Below, in pieces: positions 1,397-52,100 of a stretch of 64,000 nt of DNA (positions are counted from its first letter, which is position 1; each line of letters starts with the position of its first letter). Made by a program: the position numbers and the translations under genes. This DNA comes from Phoronis australis (lineage: Eukaryota > Animalia > Phoronida): assembly GCA_002633005.1 (NCBI GenBank), contig NMRA01000170.1, positions 689,007 through 753,006 of the forward strand, read 5' to 3'. The notes beneath the pieces are model-generated. The model was not told where the DNA came from and searched no databases. It saw only the letters and a list, made by a program, of their open reading frames with translations.

Positions 1397-1560
1397 CATG
1401 ACTACACACGCACACACCCACCTTATCCTGCCCTCTATTGGTCATGACTATACACACCCACCTTATCCTGTCCTCTATTGGTCATGACTATACACACTCA
1501 CCTTATCCTGCCCTCTATTGGTCATGACTATACACACCCACCTTACCTCGCCCTCTATAA
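1397..1560. repeat. 40-bp tandem array spanning an iRhom splice donor
   Basis: gtcatgactatacacacccaccttatcctgccctctattg, about 4 units. Confidence 0.9.
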
Positions 1561-1658
1561 GTTTATCCTCCACATCAATAGGAGCTATACCATAGACAGA
1601 CACAGCAACAATGAAGACCACAATCTGCACAAATGTGACCCAATACGTAAAGTATGGC
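1547..1658 (-). CDS. RHBDF: iRhom exon, TM1 (RPYFTYWVTFVQ...LIEGE)
   Basis: tttcag acceptor, GTAAGG donor, hallmark RPYFTYW. Confidence 0.93.
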
Positions 1659-4600: not shown

Positions 4601-7600
4601 AATGTGAAACGGGAGTTCCTCAGTGTACAACCAAGCTGCGACGAGAGACCCCAGAGTCGTCGATACTAATGTCTGAGTCATACAGGATATTGACTTACGG
4701 ATGATCTGGCAGATCATGTGCACCACCAAGCCCTGGTTCTGTCTTCCTCTCAGGAATATCAAAGAAAACTTCATCATCTTCGTCTTCTTCTTCAATGGGG
4801 GGATGATGGTCCTAGAAACAACATAGGTTTTTGTTAAAAACAACTAGCATTAGATGACGATTTTCTATAGCAAATTCAATCAAGTTCTTAAGCTGCACAA
4901 AACATTCCGCAAGATGCATTGTGGGTAGAGCAACTGCTTTATTGTTTCAGGTAATGGAGTGTAAAATAAAAGTTTATTAACCACTGAAAGAGTTGTAGTT
5001 CACTGTCACATCATTTGCTGCCCGAGAAGAAAATGTAACCAGAGAAAAAGCAGGATTAGTGATCCATCCTGTAACACTAGTATCTTGTGAGCTCAGCGAG
5101 ATTGCGCTAATGCAACACAAAATCTTGTGTTTTGTGAGACAGGTCATGATCGTGCGAGTGCACATTATCAAAATGTCTACGTCGAAAATTGATTGGACAG
5201 TTAGAGAAGAATGTAGAATTAAGGGAGAAAAGGGTACACGTACTTTTGTTGGTACAAGCCAAAACGTTTTGCTGAAGGTGTTTTTGAACATTACCAGGGT
5301 TCAGGCTGGGAGCTTTAGTCTTGATGTCTCCTTCCACACACCCAAGCTATTTTCAGGTATTTGCAACGCGAAGACCGAAGTGAAAACATAACGGATGGCT
5401 TACCAGAGGGGTCCCAGCATCCACCTCATCTTCAGTCAAACTAGGGGGTTTGAAGCTACGGGTCAGATCACCACCAGGCTTGATCAACTTAGGCACTCGC
5501 GGCTAGAACAACACAAAATACCCGCAGTCATCAACGATGTTGCATCTAAGCAACAAATGACACGTGCGGGTGGTTCCCTGCCATGTACCCCTCTGTCAAC
5601 ATTCACCAAGATCTATGTAGTTATTTGCTTTGTGTTGTAGCTAAATAATATTTTACTTAATATATCGCCGTGTATATACAAGCCTAGAAATAACGATTCA
5701 CTTCCTAGGCTAATTCTTTGTACCATTATTGTATTGCCTTATACTTGTGTTGCAATAAAAAAACTGTGCAGTGGTTTGACAGATAATCAGCAGACAAGCA
5801 AAACTAATACAACACGAGGAATGGAATGATGACCGTAGGCAACAACAAAAAAAATTGTTGGCCACATAAAAATAACTGAATCAATTACTGAGCACAAAAA
5901 TCAACAGGTTTTGTGATTTAGACAAAGTATATACAGCTGCCAAGTGAAGCATGGAAGGCACAGACACTTGTGGATGGCTCACCTTCATAGCAGCAATAGC
6001 CATCTTGACCACAGATTCTTTACGTGACACTTGTCTGGCCACTTTATGCCACTTGTTTCTGTAGTAAGTGCTGGTACTTGACCCTGGTGTCATGCCAATC
6101 ATTGATGAACTGCCCATGTCTCCTCCCACATGAAGGGGGTCATACACTGACGTCTGCGAGAAAGGTCACAGAGGTCATGTCAATCAGTGATGAACTACCC
6201 ATGTCTCTCCCACAACAGGGCATGGAATGACCAATGACAAAAAAAGACGAAAATTTCCAGGTGATTTATTGTTCCACTAATAGGCTTGTGTGATAGAAAT
6301 AATTTTTGTGTTGTAAAATTTATCTAAAATAAACGTTCTTGCATGAATAAAGTCAAAATAATGATAAAAAAAGAGACGAAAGAAGACAAAATTGGAAATT
6401 AAATAAGAGGAAATCAAAACCAAAAAAGAGGAAATCCCTTAAAAGATGAAAATTCCAAGTCATACACCGGCGTCTAGAAGAAAGGTCACTGAGATCATGT
6501 CAATCACCAATGAACTGCCCATGTGTCCTTCCACAGGAAGGAGTCATACACTGACATCTGCAAGAAAGATCACTGAGGTCATGTCGGTCACTAAAAATTT
6601 ACCAACGGGAGTTACTTGTCGTTTGAGGCAAAAACTGTGCAAAGTTTTTAGATATAAAATGCTTGAACGAAGACATAAAGTAAATACATTTTACAGGATT
6701 TTTGAAACAGTGGTTTTACATAGTTGCCAACATTCCAAAATAAACAAGAGCAAGACAAGCATTACAATACATCCACAATGAATATAGATTTCATGAAATT
6801 CCATCTAGAAACTCCCAAGGGTAACGGTAACAAAATGAAAATTTGTTGTCGCGTTCATAGGAATACACTTGACAAATCTCACAAAGATCCAGCCAGAGTT
6901 TTAGCTGTGGATGCAAAAAACACAATTGCCAGAAAGGGGTGCCACAGTAGTCAGACCTGTGCGAAAATCAGCACCAGTCATGCTGTTGTCAGTAGAAGAC
7001 TGTCCGCCAAATTTCTTAATGACCCTTTGAGAACGTTGGCAGATAGAGGGAGGCTGATGCTAAAAAACAGATTAAAAATAATTGAAAATGGCTGCTAGGC
7101 GACACAGAATATGACTAATACATTCGAAAATAGAAAGGTGTTCTTGTCTCCTTACTAGAAACCTACTGGTCAAATTTCAAGAAATCTGTCAAAGAGTTTT
7201 CAAGAAACACGAAGAAAATGAAATAAGAACTAGGAGGCACACCAGTGGTCAGAACTGTCTGGAAATCACCGTCACCTGTTGCCAGCATTACAGGAACACA
7301 CCTGGCAAATTTCATGAAGATCCTGCAAGTGGTTAAAAGGTGCGCAAAAAGTAGGACATTTGGGGGCTGTTTTGTTAAAAAGAGTCAACTGGCTTTCAAT
7401 TGGGCGTTTAGCAAAATTGAGTCTATGTTAAGATTTTTTAACATGTTTTAAGAAAATCTGTCTATAGCTCAAAGTCAAAAGGTAAAAATCTGTAGTCTCA
7501 AAAAATACAAAAAACAAAAAATCAACTTGTGGCTATTTGCACTAGACTAAAGTCAAAAGATAACAGACAGTTTATTTGAAAAACAGGTCGCTGGGCTTTG

Positions 7601-12305: not shown

Positions 12306-12890
12306 CATGTAGTCAGAATGAAGCTGTTGCGACCATGTAGTTGGAACTGAGCAGTAGTGACCATGTAGTAAGAATCAAGCTGTTGTGACCATGTAGTTGG
12401 AACTGAGCAGTAGTGACCATGTAGCAAGAATCAAGCCGTTGGGACCATGTAGTTGGAACTGAGCAGTAATGACCATGTAGTCAGAATCAAGCTGTTGTGA
12501 CCATGTAGTTGGAACTGAGCAGTAATGACCATGTAGTCAGAATCAAGCTGTTGTGACCATGTAGTTGGAACTGAGCAGTAGTAGTCAGAATCAAGCTGTT
12601 GTGACCATGTAGTTGGAACTGAGCAGTCATGACCATGTAGTCAGAATCAAGCTGTTGGGACCATGTAGTTGGAACTGAGCAGTAGTGGCCATGTAGTCAG
12701 AATCAAGCTGTTTGGACCATGTAGTTGGAACTGAGCAATAGTGAGCATGTAGTTAGGATCGAGCATTTATGACCATAATTTCAGAATCAAACAGTTGTGA
12801 CCATGAGGTCAGAATCCCGCAGTAGTGACCATGTTGCCAGAATCAACCAGAAGTGATCACGTAGTGAATATCAAGCAGTTGTGACCATTT
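12306..12890. repeat. 46-bp (2 x 23) minisatellite
   Basis: gaccatgtagttggaactgagcagtagt-gaccatgtagtcagaatcaagctgttgt. Confidence 0.95.
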
Positions 12891-18066: not shown

Positions 18067-18129
18067 AGTTCATTGGGAGCGATTTATAAACTTCAAGTTG
18101 TTCCGAAAAAGCAAGCCTTAAATAAGGCA

Positions 18130-19868: not shown

Positions 19869-20038
19869 TGTAATTGTAGCAATGTAGGCCTAATTGCCTG
19901 GCCTACCGCCCGTTTGAAATGACACAGAATGAAATTAATACAGAGACAACGAGAAGTGTTGTAGCCCCTAGACATCCGACCGAAGGGCTACGTGTAGCCT
20001 AACCTCAAGTCAGCTAGCTAAAACTGGTGAACCGATTT

Positions 20039-24857: not shown

Positions 24858-25105
24858 ATGAGTGACGGGCAACATATTGGATACAGCACCAAGGCAGCCT
24901 TCCGCATATTGCATGATGATTTATCACGTGAAGTTGATCGTTACAAGGCAAGCCTGAATGAGCCAACATGTAGCCAGTTGTTGTACACCTCTATGTTCCA
25001 TCACAATAATCGCCTGTCTGTCCTTCACTGGGTCACCTGTGTCATCATTCTCCTACAGTCAGTGTTCTTGCTAGTTGCTTATGGTCTAGGAGGTGACTCC
25101 TACAG
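24858..25105 (+). CDS. TMEM94: TMEM94 coding exon 1
   Basis: Acceptor ttacag at 24830, ATG 24858, donor GTAACA. Confidence 0.8.
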
Positions 25106-31100: not shown

Positions 31101-34100
31101 CTTTGCAGTCCTTGACATCCTGGAGAATAGGTTTGACATTGGTCTCTAGAGGCATTGTAGTATATAAAATGGTCACTTACTTAGAGACATGGTTGGTTGA
31201 CACATATCGTCTACAATGAAGTACAACAATCATAAGGCTTTGTGGTAAAATCACTAAAAATTTATGTGCAAGGTTGTCATCCTTCCTTATTTTCTGGTAT
31301 CAAGATAAACAAATATTTATGAATCCAAAGTGAAATATATTTTGTGAAAGCAAATGATGTATAACCATTTCATTTTAGTTCAGGCATAGAACACAATCAA
31401 CCTTGTGGGCTTACCGAATGACTAGTGGGAGTCTCATGATTTATCGTCTTGTCACTCTGTGTTGACTGGTGAAGTCTCATGAGACAGGTTTGAACAATTA
31501 AATCATTGGAATTATCCTCTGCATCAATTGTCTGCGTCACACAAGGTGAGGAAGCCGGAATGAAGAGCTTCCTTGTTAACTTGGCGTAAAATTTAAAAGC
31601 TTAGTTTGAAGTCCTGTTATAAAACTCACTGGATACAAAAATAAACAAGTCATGACTCAGCTAAGGTTAATTTGCTTTATCAAGAAATTAATTGTGTCTC
31701 TGGAAATGCACCGGATTATGGAAAATCGTGTCTTTTTCAATTTCATTGTTTATTACAGTAGTAGGGAAAGCGTTAGTGCCTACCCCGTGAGCTGAAAAGG
31801 AAACCTGAATTTGTACCACGGTTGCTGAACTGTGGTACAAAGTAGATCAGCAAAGGAGATGACATGAGTTGACTAAAAAAATGTAAAAAACTGCAACTGC
31901 AGTGTCAAATATACTTTGTTTGAACTAATATTGGTTCAAATTTGTGGACATGCTCATTTTGAATTAGGACAAGTTGAATTAAAGTAGATTAGTCCAAAAG
32001 GACAACAAGTCAAGAAAGTTAACGTCAAGACATGGCAGTGCTCAGCTCATTCGGATCTGAGCGCACTGTATTATTATTTTCAAAGACCGTCTAAAGCAAT
32101 TTTTTCAATCAGGGTACTTTGTTTTAGCTTTCTTTGCGGCTATCTTAATTTATCATGACTACATTTGCCAATTCTTGAAAAAATAGCATTCCTGAAGACT
32201 CAGCTTCATACTCACTAAATAAATGTTACTCACTCTAGGGCATAGAATTGTTTGAAAAATTATCCATTTTTATATCTTTGCTATTTGCAGTGTCTTTGGT
32301 TGGTGCATATGAACACTGCATTACTTTTGTTATGTCCTCAGGTAAACACCATTCTCTCATCTGCACTCTGGTCATACCTGACCTGTATTTAAATCCTCAG
32401 GCAAACAAAGTTCCTCTGCCTTCTGGTCACACCTGAACTGTATTTAATTTCTCATGTAAACGCAGTTCCTCTGCCTTTTGGTCATACCTGAACTTTATTT
32501 AAATCCTCAGGTAAATAAAGTTCCTCTACCTTCTGATCACACCTGAATTGTATTTAATTCCTCAGGTAAACACAGTTCTTCTATCTCCTAGTTATATCTG
32601 AAATGTGTCCTCAAGTTAACGCAGTTCCTCTGCCCTCTTGTCATACCTGTACTATATCTATATCCTCAGGTAAACTCCATTCTGCCCCTCTGCCCTCTTG
32701 TCTTACCTGTTCTGTGTAAGGTGCTCAACATGTATTGTGCAGCCAGAGTAATCACCGTGTTTGAAGTTGCCAAATTACTTCCCCAAGATAGCTCTAAAAA
32801 GGTGAGTACCAGCCAAATACAAATTATTGTCTGTTTGTAAAAGTCTGTTAAAAGTTTTAATGAAGGCAGAATGTTTTGCTTGAACTCAGGCTGTTTTTAC
32901 AACCCTGTATAAATTATGTGAGGGCATATTGGCGTTACTATCTGACATCCAGCATTTTCTAATGTCCTTCCCGTGTCTGCAGCTTTATCTCTTAAATACT
33001 TTGCAGAATGCTCACGAAATGTTGCAGTGTGTTCTTATGAGGATGACTTCCGGACACCTCATGGCAACTGGTGTCTGCCTTCTTATGCTGTCTTAATTAA
33101 GCTTGTCATTCTGAATCTGTAATTTTGACACAATTTGGATCAAATTTGACTCCAACATGTACAAGCTCAAGATCCCTTCGAAATTGAGCATTTTCTGCCA
33201 TTAATTGACTATTTTGTGTCATCTTTTTGCAGTGTTGTTTTGTCACAATTTCATTATCTGGCCCTGATATTCATTTGTGTCCACAAGATTACCCCTGTGT
33301 TGTTCTTATTGCATGAATTTGACTGTTGTTATGCCCCCTAGTGGCAGTTTTATTTTTTGCACCTGCCTCGACATCTACCGATTACTCTGACGAATCGTTA
33401 TGGAATTGATTTGGGGTTTTTCTGTTAGTGCGAGCACAGCTTACCTTAACTTTTGCATGTATCTAGCTACTGTTGTGCCCCCTTGTGGCAATTTAACCTT
33501 TGTACCTCAATTTGTAACTAACAAGTCCCTTGCTAGGACTTTTTGAAATCTGATCGTTGTGTTCCATTAAGAACGATGTAGCCACTGCCCATTTTTACAC
33601 GTCATCAGCGTGATTTGTGGCTCTTAATGGCAATTAAAGTTTCTTGGTGTTTTTTTTTTCTGGTAGCTGCCTTTCTGTCTCCCAAGCAGTTCAAAGATTC
33701 CTTTTGAGGTGTTTTTTGTAAATGGAAACATGGCTCACGTTGCTATGCCCCTTCGTTTGGCGCTTTAAGTTTGATGATAGTCTTCATGAAATTTGGCAGT
33801 CAGAGATAAGATTTTATCCAGGAAACAACATCTGATTCATATTTTCAGATTACTAGCATAACATTACATAGGTTCACTACTAGTGTGTGAAAATGTTTAA
33901 AAAATAGTCACCACTTATTCACTGCTTGCACACTTAGGTGGCGCTGCAAAAATGATTATTGTACTTTGTTGTTCAGGATACAGTGTCTTGTTTTAGCATC
34001 AATTTTAACAAAGCACACGTGTTCCAGACATGCTGAACCATTTGAAGTTTGGACACAACACCTCGGTTTTGAGCATTATGGCAAATTCATGCAAGTAGTG

Positions 34101-37100
34101 AATAGATACCATTTGTGATGCAGACGGTGGACACATGTCAGTGTTGGTCTTGTTGGTTTGTAGATTGGCCTGTTTAGTGTCTTAAAGTTTGTTTATTATT
34201 AAGCTGTGTTATCTATGTACCCTTCATATACTACACAGAAGGAGGTGGATGAGTACAGTACTGCCAGTAGTGAGATTGAACAGTCTGCTGTGGTCAACTT
34301 CACCTGGAGCCAGGTCTGGCATCATTTCAAGAAGGTCGTGTCGGGTCATGACCTCGCCCTTGTCAGGACAGCAAATGTGGCTCATGCGCTTGGCCATGTA
34401 ACAGTAAGTGGACACGTACTGCGTACAACGTATTGGAAACAATGCTTGTAGTAACATTATTGAACTATTTTGAACTGTACAAAAATTCATGGTTGGGTGT
34501 CCCATCTTAATATTAAGATAAAGTTAAGGAACCAATTCATCATGTGTGTTTCCCATGTAGACAGAAGAATAGGACCCGTTAAAACCAATATTTCCACTGT
34601 TTTATAATTAATTTGAAGATGTTATTCACTGTCAAATAGACATTTCATTTGGCAATAATCTTTGATCTTGGTCTAGTTTTGTATTAGCCAGATGTGCCTC
34701 ATTCTGGGTGTAGGCACAGCTTCACAATCATATAGACACGTGCCTTATTCTGGATAAGTTTGAGGCTATAAATTTGCCACCAATAGGGTGCATTCATTTA
34801 CACGTTACCATCGGTAGTTCTGCCGTGGATGTCAATGAGTCCTATCATAATGCTAACCAATAACTATGCGTATTCCACTTTCTGTTCAGACGTTGTGCTG
34901 TGTTGACAAGAAGGGCATCCTGTCATATGCTAACCCGTCACCTGAGAAGGTGTTCTTCTTTACCTCTGAAAGTAAAGGTAAAGGTCACAAGGTCAGTACA
35001 TCAGCTGTCAGTCAAAGGGATGATCAGGGAAGACGCTGTGAGGAAGAAGATGGTGAGGCTGATTTGACTAATACTTGTTACTTGAAGTAGTCGTGTTTTA
35101 CTTGGCTATATGAAAATCTTGACTTAAATTTTGGTTCGTTTCCTCAACGTTTCTTGTAGTTGAAAAAATAAAAGATTGTCTTAAGGCAATTGTTGACCTT
35201 TGTGGCTTTTTGGTTTCACAAAGTGATCTTTACTCATTCTTGTGAGTTTTTTCGTTGTTTTTGATTAGTTAACGTTCATCTGTTTTAAGGTGTTTTTGAT
35301 CAGGGGACCTATGCTACTTAATATAAAAAGTATTTCGAACCTTTTTCCATAAAATGAATTAGTAAACATAATGAATAACACAGTGAGCAGCCTGTGTTTT
35401 TACACTTTTCCATCCGATAACAGAGCTCCCTGACTAATACACTTCCTCAGCCCTGGTACATAACAAATTCTGTTTGACTTTAGCAATGGTGACAGAAACA
35501 GGTGCAAACAACGATTCAGCCATTCACGACATCCTACTGTGATTCAGCCAGTCAGACAGTCATACAGTATTTGTAATGTGCCACTTGCTCAGTGCATCAC
35601 GACTTCTGTGTTGAAGTATTGTTATTTTATGAATTTCATTTTTGTAGAAATCTACTAGAAAGGTTCAAATTACTTAGTATGTAGAATCATTCCAAATTTA
35701 CCAAAAGCACCTTAAAAACTTAACACAAGAGTTATAATATACCAGTTTATTTTTTCTTCCAGCTGCTTGTTCTGATGACAGTTATGTGGAAGTTCTGGAT
35801 TTGACTCACAATGCTAAGGTAACACAGTGACATCTGTTGACTATTTGAGATTTAGCAGTTTATCAAGAATTTTAAAGCTACATTGTGCACTCACTACTTG
35901 AGTGGTTCAAAAAGTTTTAACTGTATATTAAGGTAGGTATGAAGCTGTTTATTAAGCCAAAAATAACACCCATGATCTCCATATTGCAAACTGCATCACC
36001 ATAGAAACCAGACACGCTATATAGCCTTACTTTACCACTCTTTTTCTTGTGGCAAAATTGATTAAAAACACTTGCCATGTTTAGAATGTTGTCCTGTTCA
36101 AATTATGATTGTCTGTATATTAAGCTTTGTCATTCCTTTTATTTGCAGAATGCATTTGGAGTTCAGTTTGATGATCCATCATTTCAAAAGTATCTAACAT
36201 CTCTAAAACCTCTGGTAAGATGAATATTTCAGACCTAGTTAACATTATGGTATGTGTGTAGACCTCACGTATCAGAATAGACAGACTTGAATAGTGGCTA
36301 TAAAATTGCATTCCACCAAAGAAGCGAACCTTTTATCTAGACAAGTTTATAAAATTGATCTTTACTAGTTCCTTACTCCGGCAAGAAGTAGTTTTTGGGC
36401 TTGCAAAGAATGAACAGTTTGATATTCTGTAAGACCATGTTTGATGCCTAAATCGACACACTGACAAAACAAGTTGTAGTGCCTGATATCAGGCAATAAC
36501 AAACTGTATAAATATACAGCTTTGCGCCAATGTGGGTAAAAAAGTGGCCAAATAAAATATGACACAAAATTAGTGTCATTAAAATCTACACTCTTCTTTG
36601 AGTGAACTAAATTATTTACCAGTGTTGGAAAAAATGGCATTCTACCGTTACTCTGCTGCTAAAATTGTGTTTAGATCTTTTGCGTCAGCTTTCGGCACCT
36701 TGAAGTGTTGCGTCACTTATTGGCCAGTTTCTTTTTTCGCCGATTCTTCAATCAACTGTTCTCTTCCACTAGGTTGCATACATGTCACAACAAATTATCG
36801 GAACTGGTTTCATTTCATTTCAAGTTTATAGTATTTTAATACTGTAAAAAATACCAGCAAACCCAATTTCAGAACAAATTGCAAAGCTGTCGTGATCTCC
36901 CGACAGATGTCGCAAAATTAAAAAAAAATGGCATCTGCGCGTGTCACAAGCGTACTGTTTTCAAAAAAAGCAACTTACAGTCTTTTTTGTTACAAAAGGT
37001 GGAGAATTGTGCATGAAAATGCAACCCTGAAACACCGTGATCAACATGTTGTTCATGTACGGATACAAAATATTCAACCAATAGCGAAATCTTTTCATTC

Positions 37101-40100
37101 TCAGAGGTTGAATATCTGGCTCTTATTTCTGAACACTTTGTTCATGTACAGATACAAAATATTCAACCAATAGCGACATCTTATTCATGCCCAGAGATTG
37201 ATTAGCTGTCTCTTATTTCAACACTTTGTTCATGTACAGGCACTGAACATTCAGCAAATCTCAACATTTTCTTCTTGCGCAGGGTCTGAACATTCTCTTG
37301 AACACCTGTAACCTGGATATTTCATCACATTATACTCATTTTGCTGATCACGTGACGTGTGCTTCTCTGAAGAATGAAGATGCAGTTGCTGTTGTTAACA
37401 GAAGGTTTGTTGATATAATTTGGTCTATGTTGGCTGAGTGTGTACTTTGGACCTAATAACAGGTTTTGTTGAATGGTGTGTGTTGCCTGTATGTGTACTC
37501 TGGGTCTAATGACATTAAGTCACTATGGATTGTGCCTTGTTTAGATTTTGCAGGCCATGGAGTACATTACAATAGCAACTGCAATGTGAAGAGTTACATT
37601 CTTTTCAAGACTGTACAAAAGCTGATTTTTTCCCACAATGACGAACTGCATGGGAAACTTTAGAATACAAGTTCTTAATGAATTTAAACCGGTACTTTTT
37701 CCTTTGTGTGGGCAGACTCAGGAAAGAAGCCAGATAAGTCAAACAAGACAGAAAATGCACCCGTGATAAGTGCAGTTTTTGACACGTGTGCTTTTTGGAA
37801 GGACGGCAGATGTGGAAAGTCATGTTGACTTGAAAATTCTTTCAAGTTTTAATTTTTTGTGTATATATTTCTGTTGGAGGAGGGTATGGGGAACTTCGTG
37901 AAAATTTTCAAGGACAGGAAGTCATTGGCTTTTTTGTAGAAATTCAGCGAATGCACTGGACTTATAGTATCAAGTTGGTTTTAACATTTTTATCTTAAGA
38001 GCTTTTTTGTCTACTTGTGCACTTATTTTACATAAATGCATATAAACAGTATTTTTTATCTGTTGGCAATGTTAACCTTCATTTTAACATTCCATGTATA
38101 TCTCAGTGAATGTAAATTGTCATCTTTAATTTAACATAAGATTCCAAATCTCAATAGCAATGTTATCTGTCATCTTAACGTTTCTACTATACCGTAATAA
38201 CACTGTTAACTATTTTAACATTAGGTATGTCCTCAATAGCAATCATGTTTGCTGTAATCTTAACATTCCAAGTATATCTCAGTATTATTTAACTGTCATC
38301 TTTTAAGATGTATGTTAAAACATTCCGAGTATAACTCAGTAAAAATTTTAGCTGTTATCTTAACATTCTAATTATACCCTAGTAACATTGTTGTTTCATT
38401 GTTATTTAGGTGTTTATGCAGCTTAGCAAGAGAGATTGGCTTCACTGACCAGGCAACGGATATCTTCACATTACAAGACTCGCTAGGATTCTACCAGCAC
38501 GTGGTATGACTGGTACTTCAGCCTACACATTCAAATATCTTATGACAAAATAATTAGACTCATATTTGCAATGGAGTTTTGGTTCTGGTCTCTACCCAGA
38601 CACATTTTTAGTACGATTGAAGAACACTCCCACCTTTAACAATTATGCGAAAGTCTCGTTTTTTACAAACTGTGCAGAGGCACCTAAGCAAGGGTTAGCG
38701 AGGTTTGAAATGCCATGATTTGGCAAGCAATGACTTAAACAACCACAAAAAGCATGCATATTTTCCTAAGATTTTGTGCAGAACTTTGCAAAAGCTGCAT
38801 AATATATTTGTCTTTTGTGGAAAATTTGCAGTTTTCTTTGCAGAACTTCCACTTGGCAAAGACATATTTCTAAGTAAGAAAACACAAAATGGAGAGCAAT
38901 AGATAGGCAGAGTACAGAAAGTAATGCGATTAGCCGTGTCTGGAATATGATGTTCCAAAGTTAGCTACAATTTGGACATTTTTCTAGGGTCTTATATACA
39001 ATCGATAAACTGCAGTCAGTGGTTTTGTATACACTCTACATTATCATGATGTTACTTCAAAGTCATTGTCTAGTTATCTGTTGTTCCCTTGTATTAGTCC
39101 AGTGTATGTGAAGTGTCCAGTGCTGACTTTTGTCTTTCTCTTTACCCCCTTGTTCTAGAGTAACAGAAGTGCCCATCAGGTCACCATCTCCCCCATTCCC
39201 TTGCCTCTTGTTCTAGAATGACAGGAGTGCCCATCGGGTCACCATATTCGCATTCCCTTGCCCCCTTGTGACAGGAGTGCCCGTCAGTTCACCATCTCGC
39301 CATTCCGTTGCTGCCTTGTTCTAGAGTGACAGGAGTGCTCATTAGTCCACCATGTCCCCATACCCTTGCCCCTTGTTCTGGAGCTACAGTAGTGCCCAAA
39401 AGTTCACCAGATGTCTCCTACATCCACTTGTCACCATGTTCCAGAGTGCCACAATGGCTCATAATCACCTTCCTGTTCCTCTGCCCAGAATGACATTAGG
39501 AACCATCAGTTCACCGTGTTCCTGCTATATTGTTAGTTAGCTTCTGAATAGTTGAATGTAGTTGTGTTTTGTTCAGAACTAACCACATGGTTTGTTTTCA
39601 TGTAATCATTTCTTGCTGTTCCAGAGTGAGAAGAGTTCCCATCAGTTCACCTCCCACTCTTTCTCCAAACACAGAGTTCCCATGCCCAACATCATGTCTG
39701 TTCTGCAACAGGACACATCTGCAGGTATTTTGTGTAATGTTATTCATTGTGTTCCAATAAAGGGAGGAGATGTAGTGATTAGTATCGTCACCGGGTGTCA
39801 TAGTTGTTTACGTGATATCTGCACACGTTAGAGTATGTCTGTTCCATCCATGCAGTTTGTTAACTAACAAAATGACATAATTGGCTAAGAACTGTCATCT
39901 GGTTACATCAATTCGCATATCATTACAAAGACAGTAAAATTTACGAAAGAATCCGCTGGGGGCTTTCTTGGAAATCTCCGGTAGTAAGAGTCGAGTGAGG
40001 CCATACAGGTTTGGTCGCTGATCTAGTCCACCATGTCCCCTGATCCAGGTTTGGTCACTGACCCAGGTTTGGTCACAGATCCAGGTTTGGTCACTGACCC

Positions 40101-43100
40101 AGGTTTGGTTACTGAGCCATGTTTGGTCACTGATCCAGGTTTGGTCATTGAGCCAGGTTTGGTCACTGACCCAGGTTTGGGCAATGACCCAGGCTTGCGA
40201 ACTGACCCAGTTTTTCCCAGCCATGGTAGTGTTATCAGAATTATGAAAGGATGATCCACGAATAACAACTGATATTCAGTCTTCATATTTCTGTTTTCTT
40301 CTCCAGCCACAAAATCACTCACAGTCTGTACTATTGAGCAAGGTTCAAGCTGCAGCCAGTTATTAATTTATTTAGTGGTCTAATGTACGAGTTTCTTTTT
40401 GATGGTCTACATGCCTAGTGGCTTTAAAAGTCAAAATCAATGTCTTCTTCAAATTAAGACATTTGACATCTATTCCTCCTGAATAATACCAAATTCTCTT
40501 ACTTTCCAGGAACCTGTCACTTGTTTTCCCAAGGAACTGCTGACATATTGTTAGAATGTTGTTCTGATTTCTGGAATGGAAGTGAGATTTTGCCTCTGAC
40601 GCCGTCCGACAGGTAACTTCATGTAATAAATGTTGTACCCTAAAGACAACATTTCTAGTTATAGTTGAATGGTATCCCAATGCAGATGATAAAATCTTTA
40701 AAAAATTTCGGATAAAATTAATTGCCTAAATTGATGTTGATTTTGGGATGATTCTGAATACTGTTGCATCCGCTTGTGGCAATTTATGTTTTCTGTGCAA
40801 ATGTTTCTTTGTCTATCAAGTTTCTTGATGGGTGCTCACGAAATTTGGCAATAAGGCAGTAGTTTCTTTCTAGGAGACGACAGTACTTGTCTTGTTTTAG
40901 ATGGAGTTGACTTAGTGGCTTCTTTATTTTATATGTTACTTGTTGCTTCTAACCACCTCTAGAAGCAGACCCTTTGCGATGCAGTCATGAGTGCATTTCA
41001 ACGCTCTTCAGTCTTGTTAAAATTTTCAGGAAAAAGATTCTTGACTTCTACCACCGTACCAGTATGTCCTCTTACTGCACGGCGTATGCTTACCGTCCAG
41101 TGATGCAGACGATATGTGAAGGTGCGCCAGACGTCTACATAGAGTTACCTCCAACATTGGAGAGCTCACCTCTGCATCACAACAGAAGGTATTTTTGTGT
41201 CGTTCTATGGTCACATTAGTCATCAGTGCCAAGGATCTGTGAAAGAGCTTTCACCAAGATAAAGCCCCCATGGGGGATCTTTCGAAAACAAAGTTCAAAA
41301 AAGTTCAGTGAGGTCATCTTGCATGTTTGGTTGTTGTCAAAATCTTGCTACCAAGATGTTGCTATTTTCTCAATTTTTTATCTTTAAAAGGGCTGTTGAA
41401 GGGTTTCAAATTGATCACGTGTTTACAGACTTTTGTTGTAGAAACCGCACTAATATCGAAATGAAACTTTCTTGCAGCATACCTTAAAAATCCTCGACTG
41501 AATGAGAGTGCTAAGAGCAGCCATACGGTACAAGTTTTTGAAAAAGAAACTCCTGCAGGCTTCAACTTACACTTTTTGTAAAAAATTTAGATAATTATTT
41601 TGATATTTTCCTGTTATCAGGAATAAGACAAGCTGGGTGCTCGTGCCGACTTGCAGTTACCCCTTTGATGCGAGTATCATTGTCCAGCACTCGTGTCGAT
41701 GAGCAGTGCAAATTACTGTTACACCTTTGATGCGGATACCTATGCTGTATTCGGTAAACCACTTACTTGTTTTAACACTCAAAAAAGCTCTTAAAAGAGC
41801 TTTTTTGAGTGTTTTTGGTGTCTGTGAAAGCTGTGAAGGTAACTCGCGAGATTCAGTTTGTTTCTATGGAATATTAGCTCATTCTTTTTCAAGGAACAAT
41901 GAAAGCAAATTTGAAAGTGGTATGTTGTGATACAAAATGTGATGGCCAGCAAGTTTAGAAACAGAAATTGGCTCACTGTCTACTCATCTCGTGTGTTTCA
42001 GCTTCCCTTCTACAGTGTTCAATGGTGTCCATGACCACAAGATAATGGAGTCATTCCACAGTTTGGACTCGCTGTTGGACACAACCAGTGACCATCTTGT
42101 GGACCGTGTGGACAAATGTTATGAGATTCAGAAGAACCAGGTGTTCATAGGAATGGTCACCATGCAATATCAAACTAAACAGGTATCAGTAGTGGTAATC
42201 ATTGACCCAAAGATGAGGGGATTTAGTCATTTTAGGCGTGATTCTGTCTGTGTATCCATGTGTTTATGTCATTCCATCCGTGTGTCCATGGTTTGGTGTC
42301 ATTTCATTAATGTGTCCATTGGTAAGCGCCATTCGATCTGTGTATCTGTGGGTTGGCGTCACTATATACGTGTGTCTGTGGGTAGGCGTCATTCCATCCA
42401 TGTGTCTGTGGGTAGGCGTCATTCCATCCGTGAGTCTGGGTTGCCATCACTCCATGCGTGTCTGCAGGTAGGCGTCACTCCATCCGCGTGTCCTTGGGGA
42501 GACGTCATTCCATCCGTGTGTCTAGGTTGGCATCATTCCATCCATTTAATTTGTAAAAATTGCTGTGTGCGATATATCAAAGTTGCATTGCAATGTTTTC
42601 TTGTTAATTGGCCTTCCAACAAAACCAAGATGAATATACCCGATATAACTTGGTCTGGGAAGCCATTGTCCACTACCACAGCATGCACTTCAGTGTTCTA
42701 CTTTGCTTCAAAGAGTTTCCTAAAACCAAGTTTTTCAATGAAGAACAGCTAGAGTAGATAATGTCATATCCATCCTATTCAATGAAAGGCTGTCTGACTA
42801 CAAATTGTCTTATCCGTGTTTGGTGGGCTGGAGTCATAAACAATTCTCTCTGTTAAATTAATCAGCTGTAGGGCTTTGGTGTCACAGTTACGCTTGCGTC
42901 TCTAAAAATTGTTACGGGATAGTGTTTTCAACACTACAAAATAAATGTATAATCACCTTAAGTTGATACAAAACTGTAAATATAGCAAGTGATGCTGTGT
43001 GAGCATTGTTTCATCATGCTTATACAATGAATATAATATCATTGTAGGATATGATTCAGATGATAGATGGATTGGAGAAAGCCTGTATCAGATTTGTGCA

Positions 43101-46100
43101 TTTCTCAAATGAAAATGAACTTCGTAGCCGTGTAAGTATGTTGGCAAATTTGTTAATTGGTTTATGTTCGTAATTGATTAAAGATGCTTGTACTGTTTGT
43201 GGTGAAGCATCTTGCACAATTTCTAATTATCGTAATGTGTCAGATATTTGGTTCTATTCATTGCCATTGTTAAAAAGCTGGTTGAAGTAAGGGCCCTCGC
43301 TAACAGGTCCAGGGGTCTTGACTAGAGGGACTGTCACCCAGGATCAGTGTCTCCTGAACCCACTTTCTAACTGGGAGAGCCTATACATTCCTCCAACTCG
43401 GTGTCACTCGACTTATACACTGTACCAGTCCTTAGTCTGAGTAGCTATGTACTGCACCAATCCTGAGTCTGAGGCGCCCTGTACTGCACCAATCATGGGT
43501 CTCAAGAGCCCTGTACTCCACCAATCATGGGTCTCAAGAGCCCTGTACTGCACCAATCATGGGTCTCAAAAGCACTGTACTGCACCAATCCTGAGTCTGA
43601 GGAGCACTGCACTACACCAATCCGTAGGCTCAAGAGCCCTGCTCTGCACCAGTCCTGAGTCTGAGGAACTATCATTACACACTCCACTAATTAATCATTA
43701 GTCAGGAGCTATACACTGCACCAATGTACAGTCAAAGGAACTATACACTGGACTAATCCTTAGTCACAAGAGCTACACACAGCACTAACCTGAGGGCATA
43801 AGATCAATGCTCTAACCAAATATCAGAAGAGCTCTGCTTTGATTAGTCATTACTTATAAGAACTCTGATATGATTAATCATTAGCTCCACTCTGATCAAT
43901 AGATATTTAGACGACCTCTGCACCGTACCAATCATGACTCAAAAGCTCGCTGGAATTCCAACTAATTTTTTTCTTTTTCTCCAGGTTTTCTCTGAGAAGA
44001 TGGGTTTGGAAGCAGGCTGGAATTGTCACATTTCATTATCAAACGAGCATACTTCTGGTAGGAGTCGTCATGTATCAGACAGTGAGAAACACAGAAGTCG
44101 TATGTCAGTTCACACAATCACAGGTCAAGACATTGGTGCTTGTGAAATCCTATGGAACCACTCTGTTAAGCGTGTGGATAAACTCAGATCCAGGTGCCTC
44201 AGTGCGCCCACTGTTATTTGCCGTGTCAGCAAACCCAAACTAAGACATTCTGTAGAGACTCGAAAATTTCCGTGGAAACATTTGAATACATTGAGCATAC
44301 AGTCAGAAGAGTCACCGAGTAAGAAAGTGACATACCATCACGGGAAATCTTTAGAATTTATGGACCGCCCTGGGCGTAAGCCAGTCGATGAGGACCAGAG
44401 GGAGCCACTTGTTGGTGAGGATGCCGAGTCTATGGACAGTCTTTTAGAAGATACAAGTCTACTACATGCGTTAAAGACAGTGAGGCAGTCAGGAAGTCGG
44501 GAAACTACGAATACTGACAGTTTATCGGGCTTAGATACTCTTAATAGAGTAAGTGACTGAATTTCAGGGTTAGATACTCTTAATAGAGTAAGTGACTCAT
44601 TGCCAGGGTTACATGCTTTTAATGTATTTAGTGACCTACTTTCTAGATTAGATACTCTCAATAGAGTAAGTGAGCGACTGTCTGGGTTATGTACTCTCAA
44701 TATTGTTGGTGACTGATTGTCAGATTTAGACACTCTCAATTTATAGTAAGGGACTGACTGTCAGGTTTAGATACTCTCAATATATAGTAAGGGACCAACT
44801 GTCAGGTTTAGATACTCTTAATGTAGTAAGGGACTGACTGTCATTTTTAGATACTCTCATATAGTCAGGATTAGGTACTCTTAATAGTGTAAAGGACTAA
44901 ATGGGATCTGTTAATGTGTAAATCCAACCAAATTATTTCTTAAAAATATTGAGTGATACTAACCCAGATGTGGGTGCTTCTTCTCTGCTGCAGATGTCGA
45001 TAGCATTTGGGTGCACCCTCTTCTCTAGCAAATGTTTGGAAGACTTGTGTGCACCTTGTTCTCTGGCAGAATATTAGGGAATTTTGGGAGCACCCTCTTC
45101 AGCAGATGTTTGTTGGACTTGGTTGCGCCTCTTTCAGCAAAAATTCTACATATTGATCAGCGTTGGTTTGTTACTTTTTGTATCTGTATTGATATTCTTA
45201 CGAAATCCTGTTTTGTGAGCCAGTATCCTGCTGTTGATACAATTTACTGTAGACTGGCAATTCACAACCTCATTTTGATCTGATTGATAATTTTCTGACT
45301 TACTATATGCTCACTACATTACAGGCTAAGCTGCCCAAAGGTATAGAGAACATTCGTCCTCACTTGGATCTTGTTGATAACGTGCCTTTGTTGGTGTCGC
45401 TGTTCACCGACTGCACATCAGAGAGTAAGCATGTCAAACTACCTCTGGTTAATAGTTGATCACGTGTTGTGAAATAATTTGTCTTATGGTCACTGTAACT
45501 TTTATCGTTACTACCTTGCTTGTTATACATTCTCTGTATGGGTGTCCGCCAGCCCCTGTAGGATTGTAATCAAATGTGGCAGGGGAGGTTCCTATGAATC
45601 CAGCAAGAGATGATGGCAACTTTCTGACAGATCCGATTACTGAATATGTACCTCTAGTGTCGTTTTTTTTCAATTTATCTCTGTAGTATGACATATAAAT
45701 AGACTAAGTTCAACAGTTTTTATCAGCCATGTTTTGTTAATGTGTCTGCTGATTATCTCAAGAACTGCTTGACAGATTTTGATAAATTTTGAGTCAGAGG
45801 TATGTCGTGTCAATGGTCTGGAACCTGTTCATTTCCTGGTAGATACGACAGCCGTGGCACCAGCTGTTGGCCATTTTAGGTTTCACTGTGAAATTCTGTG
45901 TCGGCCAAGTTTTCAGTTGATAAAACAACTTGGAAATTTTTTGCCAAAATTTGATGCACAGTTATGTGGTGGCAATGTTCAACACAGATGGATTCATCTA
46001 CCCTGACACCACCTGTTCAGTTTTTTGCTCTCAACAAGAACTTTTTTGTAAAAAATGCAAATTGCACTTTTAAAGCAAGATGGTTCACTAATGACATCCT

Positions 46101-49100
46101 ATCAGTTATCTTACGAGCATTTCCCGTACTTGTTGGATAACACAGTTGGGATAACAGCAGTATTGAGATAAGGGCATTATTGGGATAACAGCACAAGAAC
46201 AATGTTGGATAACAGCCTTGTTGGGATAAGGACAATGTTCAGATAACAGCAATAATGGGATAACAGAAGTGTTGGGATAATGGCAATGTTAGGGATAAAG
46301 GCAATGTTGAAAGCCCTTATGGTCAATCATGTGCCATCACTGTGAGCAAACAGAGGCTTACAACTATTGCAGTGTAACCTTCATATGGTAAGAAGGCAGA
46401 TCTGTCGGCAGATTTGTGGGCAGACAATGAAGAAGGCAGATTTGGGGACAGACAACACAGAGGTGGATTTGACATTTGACGTGGTTGTGAAATTCTTTCA
46501 GGCAATAGATCTGCCTTCAGACTGGATGGGTTTTGACTGCTGTATAAATGAGCGGAAAGCGTAGAAAATGAAGTTTTTCTTGGTTAGTTTATGATGTACT
46601 GTTACTGGTAAAGTTTTTCAACATTCTTGGCAATTTTGTGGCTCCTCATAACATCCCAATAGGGGGCATAGGCAGATTTTTGGGAAGCAAGGGGTCCGGT
46701 CTCTACGGGTACAACATGCTTTTTAGGGCCTATTGGGAATTTTTTCATTGAAAATTGTGGTTGTCCCTCTCTCTTTCTTCATGACCTATGTCCACCTAGA
46801 TTTCTGAGTATTGACCCTAAGCAAAACTGGAACTGGTTTCATTCATTTGCAGCCACTCGGGAAATGATACGTATCATGCAAGAACATGGTGAGGTGGTCT
46901 GTTGCATCGGCAGTGACGCAAGCCTGCGTAATGTTGGTATTTTTGTACAGGCTGATGTCAGGTGAGACAATACTTAGTTAGCCATTCATAAATTGTTGGC
47001 TTTTTAATAAGTTCTTTGCTGTAAGTTTTGTTGATAATATGCATCATTTTTTTTTTGCTTTTTTGTTTTTTACCATCACATGAAGGAAATGCTGTCATTT
47101 TTTCAGTTCCTTTTGAAGGTATGCCAGATATAATGCTTCCTAGTGCTTTCTGGGCTTCGTCTCCAATTATTGCACATTATATTTTTGGTAATAAGGATTA
47201 AAAAAGTACAACCCAATTCAAAACTGTATGGAATTTGCGAGGTATTAAAGATGTATTTGCATACCCCTAACTATGCTAATGTATAGCGGGAAATAAATGG
47301 CAATGCTATTTGAACATCTGCGCTAAACAAAGTGTAGTTGTATTCACTGACAACTTGTAAAATGTGAAAACAAAAAATTCTGCAAATAGGTGACCTTTGC
47401 ACTAATGATGTACCTGGCTGGCTTACATAGCTCATCATACACTGTTATTCACCAGCACCATGTCATGATTTTTACTGGATACGGTTCAGTGGTTTAGGGA
47501 GGATCATTTTCGCCTCAAAACTCTTTCTTAAAAACATTTTGGCAATTTTCAATCTACTTCAAATTCACATCGTCACATTATGTTGTGTTTCTTACTAATT
47601 TGGCCATTGAAGCAGAGACAGAGATAAGGAATAAGTGTGCAATTTTCCACTTGAAGATCAGTCAGTAAGCACTCTATTGTTGGGTTATACTAAAAAATTG
47701 ATTATGGCTCAGGAGGCCTAAAGAGAGAAGACTTTGCTGTGCATGTTTTTTCAGATCTCTTTTATTCCGCCATAGTTAACCAATTTTTGTCACTGAAAGA
47801 CTGGAAGGGCTCAACTGTTAATGATGATTGCAGTGCTAAAAATGGTCTGAACTATGACAATTTAACTGTAGACAGTGCTGTTCCGTCATCCCCAAACAAA
47901 AGAGACCAGACATAAAAGTCCAGAAGCTGTCGTAATTAACCCTTAAGGTGCTTTCAAATAAATTAATGGTGATGATTGGTAAATGAGATATAGTGCGCCA
48001 TGGTAACTGAGGTAATCAGAACTCTTCAATATCTTCCAGCTTTGCCCTGACTCCACTCTTCCCTCACGTTTGTTCAAAACAGCCGGCCATGTTGACCCCA
48101 TGGGACGAGAATGACCCTTCTCCGATGGACGTCAACGCCATGTTGAATAGCATTGCATGTCCATTGAGATTCAAGATTTCAGATAATGTCAGCGTACTGG
48201 AACTCATCTGTGAGGTACATTTAAGACTACTTATAGAATATGTATTGGGTATTTTTTAACCAGAATATGGTGGTCTTGCTAGAACTAAAATGTCAATTCT
48301 CATGTCTTATATGCATTGTCAAAGTTCTGTTGTTTTGTATTGTTTGCATTAATTGCTTAAGATTATGGCAAACCTTATTTAGGGTCCTTTACTTTAAGCC
48401 AGTTACTAAAAACTGGATTACTCCAAACAAAAGTTGTTCGACAGAAACTGAGAAATAGTGATATACATGATGATCCTTGAAACTCCAAGGTTTTCATTCC
48501 ATGCCTTCTATAAAACAAGTACTGCTTAACACAACTTACTCATTCATTTACTTTGTTATTTAAGTCATCTTTTAACTGTAAATGTCAATTGAATATGTGT
48601 TTCATATACTTATCTAATTACCACCAAACGGTTGTATCGGAATCGTTCAGAGTCCTGGCTCAATATAGGTCAATGTTGCATTGTGATTCACTCCATATGA
48701 AACGTGCATGAGGCTGAATCTCACAAAACTGATTATGATGATCGAAAATAGAAATTGAATATCTGTGATTAAAGGACACTCTGAGTGAGAGATCGAAATG
48801 GCAAAACGTCAAATGACAGATTAGTGGAATCAATGTGTTTAGTTGAAGATTTATCTTTAATCACAGATGCCTCTGTCTGCCAAATGACCGTGAGCGTCAC
48901 GGTGTGGTGCATTGCTCATCAGTGCTATTTTTACGAAATGTTTGAGAATTGCTGCATGAGGACATAGCACTCAAAGTTAAATTTAAGTGGACTTATTTTG
49001 GCAATATTAAGAGCTCTATAGCTCACAATTTGCATTGCTTCGGCGTCAGTAACTCGTCACACTTATACATACAGGTGGGAGATTCGATTTAAGTTGGAGT

Positions 49101-52100
49101 ACTTACAACCTTTAAACCTGGCTCTGTTGTGAATAAATATCTACATGGTTGAAGGGGGTGCTGCAAAATATATTTTTCTCTTACTATTATACTTTATAAT
49201 TATTTGAATTTAACTGAGAATGGAGATGAGGTATTTTGCTAGACAAATGAGCAATACTACAAAAACAGACATTTTTTGTCAACCAGGTCCAACGTATCCT
49301 TAACATTCCCATGTTTTGAAACTTATCCAGACTGAACAGAGTCTACTGTCTCCTAGTAGATGCAGCGTTAAGAACATGAAATTGTCTTCTCTCCACCTAG
49401 GCACGTCATCTCATGGCATCTATGCGTAACAGTCTGCTACTGATGTTCAGCTGTCTATTGACCTTGACCTTCATACAGGTGGTGGCCTCTTTTGGTCTGC
49501 CTCCACCACTTAGGGGTTATCATGTGCTGTGGCTGTGCTGTTTCGTTGTGCCCCTGCTGAGCCTCACTGTGATGGGTGTTCCTAAGGACTCTGGCTGCAT
49601 CACTCATGTACCCTATGGCAAGAATAACCGCTTCATTAAGAAGAAGGTTTGTTTATATTCAACGAATATTCATAATGGTCTGTGAAAAATAATGAGCTGT
49701 ATTAATATATTAATAAAATTGAACTAACAGACTGTGCCAGATCATCCAGCTAAATAAGCTAGAGCTTTGGGTCCCACGCAATATTAGGGTCTTACCTTGT
49801 AGAAACTCGGTCCTACAACATGTACACACCTCCACAACAGGAACACACCTCCATAGGCTCCATACGCCTCCATGCACAACAGCTACATGCCTACTCAACA
49901 TGTACACACCTCCACACATGGATGTGGTTGCTACAAGGGTAAAGAAACAACAAGAAATGTGAAAATTCTCATTTTCTGGCTCGTTACACCATGTTCCTCT
50001 GTGGTCACAGAAAGCAGAATTTGTCTTGCTCTTCATTCGTTTTTATCTGAACTTTGTCTGAAGACATAATGAATTGTCAATTCTTCCCGAGTCCAGAGAT
50101 AACTTCTAGACTGAGTGAGAAACAAGACACTACCAACGTTTCAACAGCTGAGTGACTTAAATAACAAATGCATTAACTTGCTGTTAATTAGTTCACGAAT
50201 CATTTTTTGTAATGGTCACAAAATTGAATCAAGGCATTGGACACTCGCCATTATGTGAAACGGATGTCCAACAGCAATAGTCATATTACCTAGTAAACAG
50301 CACTCAATTAACCTTTCAAGTGGAGAAAATGATGTCATTTTGTTGGCACATGAACAACAAGTAACTGTCAGTCTGTTCTAAAACCATTGTTTTCTTAGTG
50401 GTATTTTACCTTCTCACAAACTTCATTTCTTTTGCAGTATGTTGGCCAGTACTTGAAATCGTACATATTTCGCTTTCTCCCATCGTCAGCTGTGTGTCTG
50501 ATCTGTTTCGGATTAACGCTGTACAGCATGTGCGAGGCAAATACAGCAAAGACTGGTGGCGAATGTCATGCCCTCTTTGGTGCAATGTGAGCACTTCTAA
50601 CTAATGTCATATTCTTTTTGATGCAATGTGTGGACTAATTATTGTCATGTCCTCTGTGGTGCAGTGCAAAAACTAATTAAAATCATTCTGTTTGTTGCAT
50701 TATTTGTACTAATTAATGTCATGTCCTCTGTGGTGCAATGTGAGAACTAAATTTAATTAATATATTCTTATTTGTTACAATGTGTGTAGGACACCGTCCT
50801 CTCTGATGCATTATAAACGCCATTATCAATCAACAGTGTTTTTAGGAAAAAGTAAGACAAGTATTACTTTATATGGTCTATCCTCTAGTCTAGAGATTAT
50901 TGTCCACACTACTTTTGTTCAGATTTTCTGCATCATTACAATTTCAAACACTCCACACTTTTGTCTCCATTTTAATAGTACCAAAACTTTTTATTTCTCT
51001 TCCATTTCATCCATTAAAAATCTTTCTAGAAATTTCCTTTTCCTCCTATTTAGGCTGTCAATTTTTACTTTTTAATGGCAGCACTTCTCAGAGTTTAAAT
51101 AATGGTAAAAAATATAATGGGACCGATTTCATGAGTCTCACTGTCACAGTAGAAGGCTTAATTTGATTTCTGTCTTTTCTAAACGGGGCAAAATGCAGCT
51201 TTAAATATCTAGTCTTATTGTTTCAGTAACTCTTCTGACTCTCACTGGAATGGCTGGACATCAGAGTATCGCGGTGACTTGACGCTGGCTCAGAACTGGC
51301 TGGTCTTTCAACTACTCCTCTACTTTAGTACGTCTCTCCTACTACAATTTCCATTGTCTCCAGATGTTGACCTATGGCCTCATTCTCTTGCTTCTACTGA
51401 AGATGTAGCAGCTGACCTCGTGTTCCCTTGCCACATTTCTTTGGTCAAATGTGCCTAAATCATTTTGTAGTGGTCCTCTTTCACAAGCATTTTAATATTA
51501 TGTTGAACTTAGTATTTGGAATGTTTTAAATACTATATTGATCACACATCATTCATTTTATAAGTAATGACAGCATTACTTATGTTGTTAATTGAAAAAA
51601 AATAACCTAATTCAAGTCAAGTAAGATAGGACATAGACACAAGTTTCAGAGCAATTACAATAACAACCAAGTTATCACACTGTTAAGCCTAGACCCCTCT
51701 CTGCTAAACATTAACCGATTTGTCTATTACACATACTTAGCAAAATTTTCTGCTAGTTTCGACATTTGGCGGTTTTGAACATAGATGCGTATAACTCTCT
51801 CAAAGTGTTTATGTTGGTGAAGGAAATAGAATCTCGTCACGATAAAGAGCATTTTGAGACTGATTTTGTGAAAGTAAAAGGCCCAAAGTGATTTTCATTT
51901 TAGTCAACTAAACAGAGCAAACTGCAGCTTTAAGTCATGCTGTTTGTTTTGGGAGACGGTGCAAATTAAAAAAATGCGTAATTTTTCTTCTAAGTTTTCC
52001 TTAATGGGAACCATCATGCTTACATTTTTGAAGCTTGTTAAATTTCCCTTTACGTTTTGATTTTGGTGACAACCTTGCCTGTTGGTGGTTGCGTTGTATT

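What the first reader, a model, noticed from the sequence alone, without database searches (positions are those of the whole stretch)
1397..50785. Recurrent 'splice-junction echo' arrays: exon boundaries are the terminal unit of intronic tandem repeats
Seen: at least 8 junctions in two unrelated genes (iRhom donor 1547 and acceptor 6153; TMEM94 acceptors 25869, 32670, 37283, 39625 and donors 44548, 50586) are the last unit of a tandem array. Each unit (37-90 bp, unrelated between loci) contains both exon and intron sequence across the splice site. The array always runs into the intron and the coding copy is always the exon-side end. Two more arrays (29170-29280, 38050-38400) stop exactly at acceptors. 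Established: tandem duplication across splice sites is a proposed route for intron gain and splice-site shift. Inference: this density suggests a lineage-specific process that amplifies or preferentially retains junction DNA, leaving runs of decoy splice sites. These could be neutral by-products, splicing modulators or raw material for new exons and introns. I am not aware of this being described as a systematic feature.
Basis: partly seen in the sequence, partly recalled or inferred. Interest (0 to 1): 0.85.

Follow-up and report, generated by a model that had tools for sequence, protein, structure and literature searches.

The report
Splice-junction "mirage" minisatellites, two genes
Short stretches that straddle exon edges in two genes of this invertebrate are copied head to tail into the neighbouring introns; this repeat type is already known from lancelets ("mirages"), the RNA reads at the three edges tested use only the true splice site, and the extra copies are likely harmless clutter.

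Summary
The feature is already described: "mirage" minisatellites of amphioxus (PMC3087553, PMC3902484) and the human F7 intron-7 repeat (PMC1557585). This scan also noted it on at least eight other windows, each listed as another genome. The window is not amphioxus: its TMEM94 groups with lophotrochozoans. RNA confirms 9 of 9 introns tested; 49 reads at three echo junctions use the true site and no other splice joint is listed. All 22 intact decoys tested would give a stop or frameshift, so decay could hide some use. Decoy GT/AG is neither purged nor preserved (P=0.62). Per base there is no enrichment (12% of junctions, 10-15% of intron bases). Per array there is: 8 of 25 against 1.6 expected, in a window chosen for the feature. 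The one-sided polarity follows from selection. Verdict: real, known kind, likely neutral; the cause of the excess at junctions stays open.

The parts
1404..1587 (-). iRhom donor 1547 mirage: 40-bp unit, about 3.7 copies; the three intronic copies share loss of the GT
   Evidence: echo-echo identity 0.91, real-echo 0.76
6078..6605 (-). iRhom acceptor 6153 mirage: 84-bp unit, interrupted by about 235 unrelated bases; two copies keep AG
   Evidence: junction inferred from AG and open frame only
24718..24894 (+). older single echo of TMEM94 acceptor 24831 (about 93-nt offset), copying the start-codon region
   Evidence: score 39; null maximum 36 of 4118 pairs
25513..25899 (+). TMEM94 acceptor 25869 mirage: 52-bp unit, about 6 copies; one keeps AG
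29167..29280 (+). 27-bp array of branch-point-like and pyrimidine-tract sequence ending at acceptor 29281; no exon bases copied
32317..32721 (+). TMEM94 acceptor 32670 mirage: 55-bp unit, 6 copies; four keep AG, three of them as AG|GT
34800..34936 (+). older single echo of acceptor 34890 (about 75-nt offset)
   Evidence: (score 34; 0.02% of null pairs reach it)
37033..37298 (+). TMEM94 acceptor 37283 mirage: 44/88-bp units; true acceptor used by 17 RNA reads
37416..37517 (+). 53-bp duplication starting about 11 nt after donor 37404; possible decayed echo
   Evidence: not significant in the junction test
38061..38400 (+). decayed array (about 57-bp unit) ending just before acceptor 38410; no RNA depth over 37984-38297
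39136..39663 (+). TMEM94 acceptor 39625 mirage: 50-58-bp unit; true acceptor used by 15 RNA reads
44511..44909 (+). TMEM94 donor 44548 mirage: 39-bp unit, about 8.5 copies; two copies repeat the donor 9-mer exactly; true donor used by 17 RNA reads, depth 0 over 44578-44891
50553..50783 (+). TMEM94 donor 50586 mirage: 37/74-bp units
24831..54036 (+). host gene TMEM94, 27 coding exons, 1375 aa
1547..10108 (-). host gene iRhom (5' part, 7 coding exons; the gene runs off the window's left end)

Best explanation
The eight arrays are 'mirage' minisatellites, tandem copies of an exon-intron boundary that run into the intron, and they are likely neutral by-products that splicing skips. Steps. (1) A local duplication of 37-90 bp that happens to span a junction seeds the array (inferred: units are unrelated between loci and single-copy, and the exon part codes for conserved residues, so the exon came first). 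(2) Unequal exchange or conversion likely multiplies the unit (established for minisatellites; higher-order periods such as 110 and 88 and shared mutations are seen here). (3) Splicing uses the copy that is continuous with the full exon (shown for 3 junctions; for donors F7 experiments show 5'-to-3' choice), and rare errors would be cleared because every decoy tested gives a stop or frameshift (predicted). (4) Arrays that spoil the exon would be lost, which fixes the polarity (inferred). (5) The excess at junctions likely comes from longer survival: one copy is frozen by selection, deletions cannot cross the splice site, and young mobile DNA dilutes mid-intron (inferred, not tested).
For: 8 of 67 junctions echo on the intron side, 0 of 67 on the exon side. 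All defining features of mirages that could be tested are met. RNA: 9 of 9 predicted introns in 36100-45500 seen as GT..AG joints, no other splice joint among 13 rows listed; 17, 15 and 17 reads at three echo junctions; depth 0 over the 44548 array in 3 of 3 runs. At 6 of 8 junctions a decoy scores as high as the true site or higher, yet at the two of these six covered by RNA (37283, 44548) none is seen used. GT/AG bases kept 43 of 54, other bases 575 of 756, P=0.62. 22 of 22 intact TMEM94 decoys tested give a stop (21) or frameshift (1). DNA contig depth over the arrays is at single-copy level (38-53) against 350-40000 in bins with dispersed repeats. Exon residues next to echo acceptors 32670 and 37283 are conserved in homologs.
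Against: Step 5 is untested: the excess is about 5-fold (8 against 1.6) and stays 2.7-fold (P=0.006) if half of the intron DNA is discounted as young, while only 8 of 30 bins show high-copy DNA. Arrays that copy no exon base also lie close to exon edges (5 of 16 with p<0.15; combined P=0.01, KS P=0.13), which a frozen exon copy does not explain. RNA depth is low (0 of 49 reads bounds decoy use only below about 6%), comes from one study and other samples, a joint needs 3 reads to be listed, and decay of faulty transcripts would hide use.
Confidence: 0.6

Rival explanations
1. Origin bias: duplications arise preferentially at exon edges, for instance because repair or recombination between divergent alleles starts in the conserved exon and slips or switches template where the intron sequences stop matching. 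The arrays are still neutral.
For: 5-fold per-array excess (TRF-only inventory 6 of 16 against 0.6, strict overlap 4 of 16, P=0.002). Non-spanning arrays also hug exon edges. Local repeats cover 15% of introns between coding exons and 0.6% of the 5-kb first intron region. Intron alleles differ here by indels (25 gap letters in one 1064-nt contig).
Against: No young, identical duplicates at junctions: copies are 56-89% like the true junction, which fits long survival. The window was picked for the feature. No direct test of origin was possible.
Confidence: 0.25
2. No real enrichment: the genome is rich in minisatellites, some land on junctions by chance, and this window was picked because it has many.
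For: Per base, 8 of 67 junctions (12%) lie in local repeats against 14.9% and 9.9% of intron bases. Small numbers; array inventory partly hand-set.
Against: A junction can only be an end unit, so the per-base null is too lenient (inference); per-array P from 8e-5 to 0.036 over the assumptions tried; two genes agree; two more old echoes were not counted.
Confidence: 0.1
3. Functional decoys: the copies tune splicing, back up the splice site, or feed new exons and introns under selection.
For: Many decoys are intact and strong; three units at 32670 keep AG|GT, the motif from which a duplication can make an intron (PMC3265369, abstract and results); F7 pseudo-sites can work when the true site is lost (PMC1557585, abstract).
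Against: No decoy joint listed and no depth over arrays; GT/AG decays like its flanks; all three copies at 1547 lack GT; every decoy tested breaks the frame.
Confidence: 0.04
4. Assembly artefact.
For: Tandem arrays are prone to mis-assembly; one amphioxus mirage was mis-assembled in a draft (PMC3087553, supplement legend).
Against: Units are diverged. Contigs of DNA run X1 span the 39136-39663 and 38061-38400 arrays and reach into those at 44548 and 50586; X1 may be the source sample, so this is not fully independent.
Confidence: 0.01

Closest known systems
Amphioxus 'mirage' minisatellites (Adh3; globins BflGb6, BflGb9; troponin C; PGBD5). Seen: PMC3087553 section 16 and passages; PMC3902484 one passage. 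The naming paper (Canestro et al. 2002, NAR 30:2871) was not held; known only through these citations.
   Same: Repeat unit spans an exon-intron boundary; donors and acceptors both affected; many but not all units keep AG/GT; units 10-160 bp there, 37-90 bp here; normal splicing; concerted evolution of inner units that leaves out the boundary copy (here at 1547, 32670, 39625).
   Different: Host is a lophotrochozoan, not a cephalochordate; 8-10 cases in two neighbouring genes; copies more decayed (56-89% against 81-100% in BflGb6); length instability of the junction arrays themselves not shown here.
Human F7 intron-7 (IVS7) 37-bp VNTR. Seen: PMC1557585 abstract and section list.
   Same: First unit spans the exon-intron boundary; the true donor is followed by identical, normally silent pseudo-donors, as at 44548 (39-bp unit).
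   Different: Single human locus, donor only, tested by mutation; here several loci, mostly acceptors, untested by mutation.
Intron gain by tandem genomic duplication (Rogers model). Seen: PMC3265369 abstract, introduction, results and start of discussion.
   Same: Local duplication that copies splice signals; AG|GT in the 32670 unit.
   Different: There the duplication lies inside an exon and makes a new intron; here it spans an existing junction and only lengthens the intron. No gained intron was shown here.

Membership tests
mirage minisatellites | tandem unit spans an exon-intron boundary | tested here: met
   8 of 67 junctions; exon and intron halves both match
mirage minisatellites | duplicated splice signals, kept in many but not all units | tested here: met
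   unit tables and site scores; none kept at 1547
mirage minisatellites | both donor and acceptor boundaries affected | tested here: met
   5 acceptors, 3 donors
mirage minisatellites | normal splicing not disturbed | tested here: met
   3 of 8 junctions tested: 49 reads at true sites, no decoy joint listed; low depth; decay could hide use
mirage minisatellites | concerted evolution of inner units, boundary copy left out | tested here: inconclusive
   echo-echo above real-echo at 1547, 32670, 39625; the reverse at 25869, 44548, 6153; about equal at 37283, 50586; copies were picked by likeness to the true junction
mirage minisatellites | copy-number variation between alleles | tested here: inconclusive
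   a 36-nt gap (two units) in the non-junction 18-bp array at 40042-40077 in run X1; none listed for the junction arrays
mirage minisatellites | somatic length instability (reported for Adh3) | not testable with these tools
   needs small-pool PCR or single-molecule reads of tissues
intron gain by tandem duplication | new intron made of exon-derived duplicate between two AGGT motifs, absent in orthologs | tested here: not met
   arrays fill one end of introns that have their own distant other end; ortholog DNA was not compared
repeats carried by mobile elements | unit occurs at many dispersed loci | tested here: not met
   units unrelated; single-copy contig depth over 6 array bins

The most novel reading that the evidence does not exclude
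Exon edges are birth sites of minisatellites across invertebrates: a general mutational process, such as repair between divergent alleles that starts in conserved exons and slips where intron homology ends, makes junction-spanning and junction-abutting arrays several times more often than elsewhere, continually supplying decoy splice sites and corrupting automatic gene models.
Probability: 0.25. Interest if true: 0.65.

Novelty: new member of a known kind. Interest (0 to 1): 0.27.

Why it matters
As it stands: a dense, RNA-checked example of a little-known repeat type outside chordates. My searches found no paper on mirages in protostomes and no genome-wide count (open-access library only). 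The arrays are natural tests of splice-site choice, since equal or stronger decoys lie 39-400 nt from the used site, and for acceptors the choice is not covered by the F7 work. They matter for annotation: predicted TMEM94 proteins of amphioxus and a clam appear to have absorbed such copies. If the excess is due to origin and not survival, it would point to an unrecognised mutational bias at exon edges.

Tried and rejected
No whole genome is held for the window, so no genome-wide test. Two protein searches with single exons found nothing and Pfam found nothing on five single-exon pieces: weak searches, no evidence. The joint table of the first read lay was filled by DNA contigs (15 rows shown, 112 hidden), so junctions 32670 and 50586 have no joint evidence; only depth (0.45, 0, 0 over 31900-32563). 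No indexed RNA holder was listed; the RNA runs came by species label. Three papers look-ups failed: Canestro 2002 by DOI and PMC id and Zhuo 2007. PMC6823432 proved irrelevant. No earlier notes on this genome; a second word search gave nothing. Rejected: amphioxus as host (36-37% identity to Branchiostoma; tree); assembly artefact; mobile-element origin of the units; faster loss of GT/AG (P=0.62); polarity as evidence for a directed process. Weak candidates not counted: 45325 (score 30, reached by 0.8% of null pairs), 37404, 29473. Dropped before the count of 25 arrays: clusters with under 40 hits, with periods over 120, or outside the coding spans; 24718 was counted as non-junction. The tree used 35 of the fetched proteins, had no annelid, phoronid or bryozoan by name, and was a quick search. 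Supplements of the papers were not read; those of PMC3087553 hold the unit alignments and could refine the comparison.
Full report
Gene models. I built exon models from the sequence. TMEM94 lies on the + strand with 27 coding exons from 24831 to 54036; all 26 introns are GT-AG and the joined frame is 1375 aa without a stop. It is 36-43% identical over its length to named animal TMEM94 proteins. iRhom lies on the - strand with 7 exons from 10108 to 1547 in one open frame; the last two match iRhom1/2 chains of the PDB. RNA reads of three runs (one study, same species label) show 9 of 9 predicted introns between 36100 and 45500 as GT..AG joints.

Observation. For each of 67 junctions I took 15 nt on each side and looked for copies within 600 nt. 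Shuffled DNA gives hits at 0.12% of positions. Units are about 40, 84, 52, 55, 44/88, 58, 39 and 37/74 bp, and unrelated to each other. Copies are 56-89% like the true junction over 36 nt, one weak copy 50%. An exon-only test found two further old single copies, at acceptors 24831 and 34890, above or at the top of a null of 4118 pairs. Contigs of a DNA run hold four of the arrays in whole or part, at single-copy depth; that run may be the source sample.

More than chance? The genome region is rich in local repeats: 14.9% of TMEM94 intron bases and 9.9% of iRhom intron bases, against 8 of 67 junctions (12%). On that count there is no enrichment. But a junction can only be the end unit of an array, so I also asked how often a founding unit placed at random would span a junction by 8 nt or more. 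Of 25 arrays in the coding spans 8 do, against 1.6 expected (P=8e-5); if only 75%, 50% or 35% of intron DNA is old enough to count, 2.1, 3.0 and 4.1 are expected (P=5e-4, 0.006, 0.036). With TRF's list alone it is 6 of 16 against 0.6, or 4 of 16 by strict overlap (P=0.002). High-copy DNA shows in 8 of 30 bins of 31900-51800, so dilution alone is unlikely to explain it. Non-spanning arrays lean towards exon edges, weakly (combined P=0.01, KS P=0.13). The window was picked for this feature, so these P values do not carry to the genome.

Do the decoys work? With matrices from the window's 30 other donors and 29 other acceptors, at 6 of 8 junctions a decoy scores as high as the true site or higher. 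Yet 17, 15 and 17 reads join 36214-37283, 38503-39625 and 44548-45325, no other splice joint stands among the 13 rows listed (4 rows come from a dispersed repeat), and depth is 0 over 44578-44891 in all three runs and 0, 0.1, 0 over 39240-39553. Limits: 0 of 49 bounds use only below about 6%; joints under 3 reads are not listed; the reads come from other samples whose arrays may differ; and 22 of 22 intact TMEM94 decoys tested would give a stop (21) or frameshift (1), so decay of faulty transcripts would hide use. GT/AG bases are kept at 43 of 54 and other bases at 575 of 756 (P=0.62): no purge and no upkeep.

Mechanism. Shown: locus-specific units that hold exon and intron sequence; conserved exon residues beside 32670 and 37283, so the exon came before the array; use of the true site at three junctions. 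From established knowledge: minisatellite growth by unequal exchange or conversion; for donors, choice of the most upstream site among identical pseudo-sites, shown by mutation in human F7 (PMC1557585, abstract). Inferred: the polarity. A duplication across a donor leaves the first copy joined to the exon; if that site is used the rest is intron and harmless, and any other outcome puts stops into the message. The same holds mirrored for acceptors, likely through exon definition (recalled, not tested). Also inferred: the excess at junctions. One copy is frozen by selection, so likeness decays more slowly; deletions that cross the splice site are purged; young insertions dilute mid-intron. At 25869, 44548 and 6153 copies resemble the true junction more than each other, as a frozen template predicts, while at 1547, 32670 and 39625 they resemble each other more (copies were chosen by likeness to the junction, which biases this). 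The rival is an origin bias at exon edges, which I could not exclude.

What is known. Tandem repeats that span an exon-intron boundary were reported in amphioxus Adh3 and termed mirages; they occur in globin genes at both boundaries, often keep AG/GT, do not seem to disturb splicing, vary in length, have an unclear origin, and were proposed as a route to new introns (PMC3087553, section 16). Lancelet PGBD5 and troponin C are further cases (PMC3902484, one passage). The naming paper was not held. The window is not amphioxus: 36-37% identity to Branchiostoma floridae TMEM94, and in a quick tree of 35 proteins it falls in a lophotrochozoan group (support 100), outside the molluscs, weakly beside Lingula (81); no annelid was named in the tree. 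Searches for a protostome case or a genome-wide count found none (listings only). I had reached the mirage reading; the later look-up showed eight unchecked notes of this scan with the same reading on other genomes and gave the F7 lead.

Verdict. Real, more than chance per array in this window, a new member of a known kind, likely neutral. Interest 0.27. The open question worth work is whether exon edges make such arrays or only keep them.

Noticed in passing
proteins P0009, P0096 (Branchiostoma floridae) and P0112 (Mactra antiquata): Predicted TMEM94 proteins hold tandem peptide copies at places matching window introns 5 and 13 (amphioxus) and 6 (clam); 4 of 148 long homologs had such repeats, the fourth a short unrelated one. 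Likely junction arrays absorbed into gene models; the amphioxus one sits at the edge homologous to 32670. No DNA seen.
   Followed up: partly
window 24718-24894 and 34800-34936: Old single copies of acceptor regions; the first copies the TMEM94 start-codon region into the intron.
   Followed up: yes
window 19640-21000 and 21370-22660: A direct duplication of about 1.3 kb in the 5' intron region of TMEM94, read by eye; the window's only N (20976) lies at the end of the first copy, so it may be two alleles joined by the assembly.
   Followed up: no
window 18270-19500: iRhom and TMEM94 appear head to head, with likely untranslated first exons about 1.2 kb apart (donor-like sites near 18270 on - and 19495 on +), read by eye.
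   Followed up: no
window 8555-9960 and 29830-30790: Two elements with inverted ends and internal 55-bp repeats, like non-autonomous DNA transposons, read by eye.
   Followed up: no
window 36475-37021 and 47240-47560: Very high-copy dispersed repeats inside TMEM94 introns, with RNA reads on both strands.
   Followed up: no
window 40042-40077: Two units of the 18-bp array are missing in a contig of run X1: a length variant.
   Followed up: no
window 12296-12902, 26627-27267, 42230-42554, 43402-43956, 57910-58273, 60288-60494: Further minisatellites that do not span modelled junctions; those beyond 56000 were not checked against the gene that seems to lie there on the - strand.
   Followed up: partly
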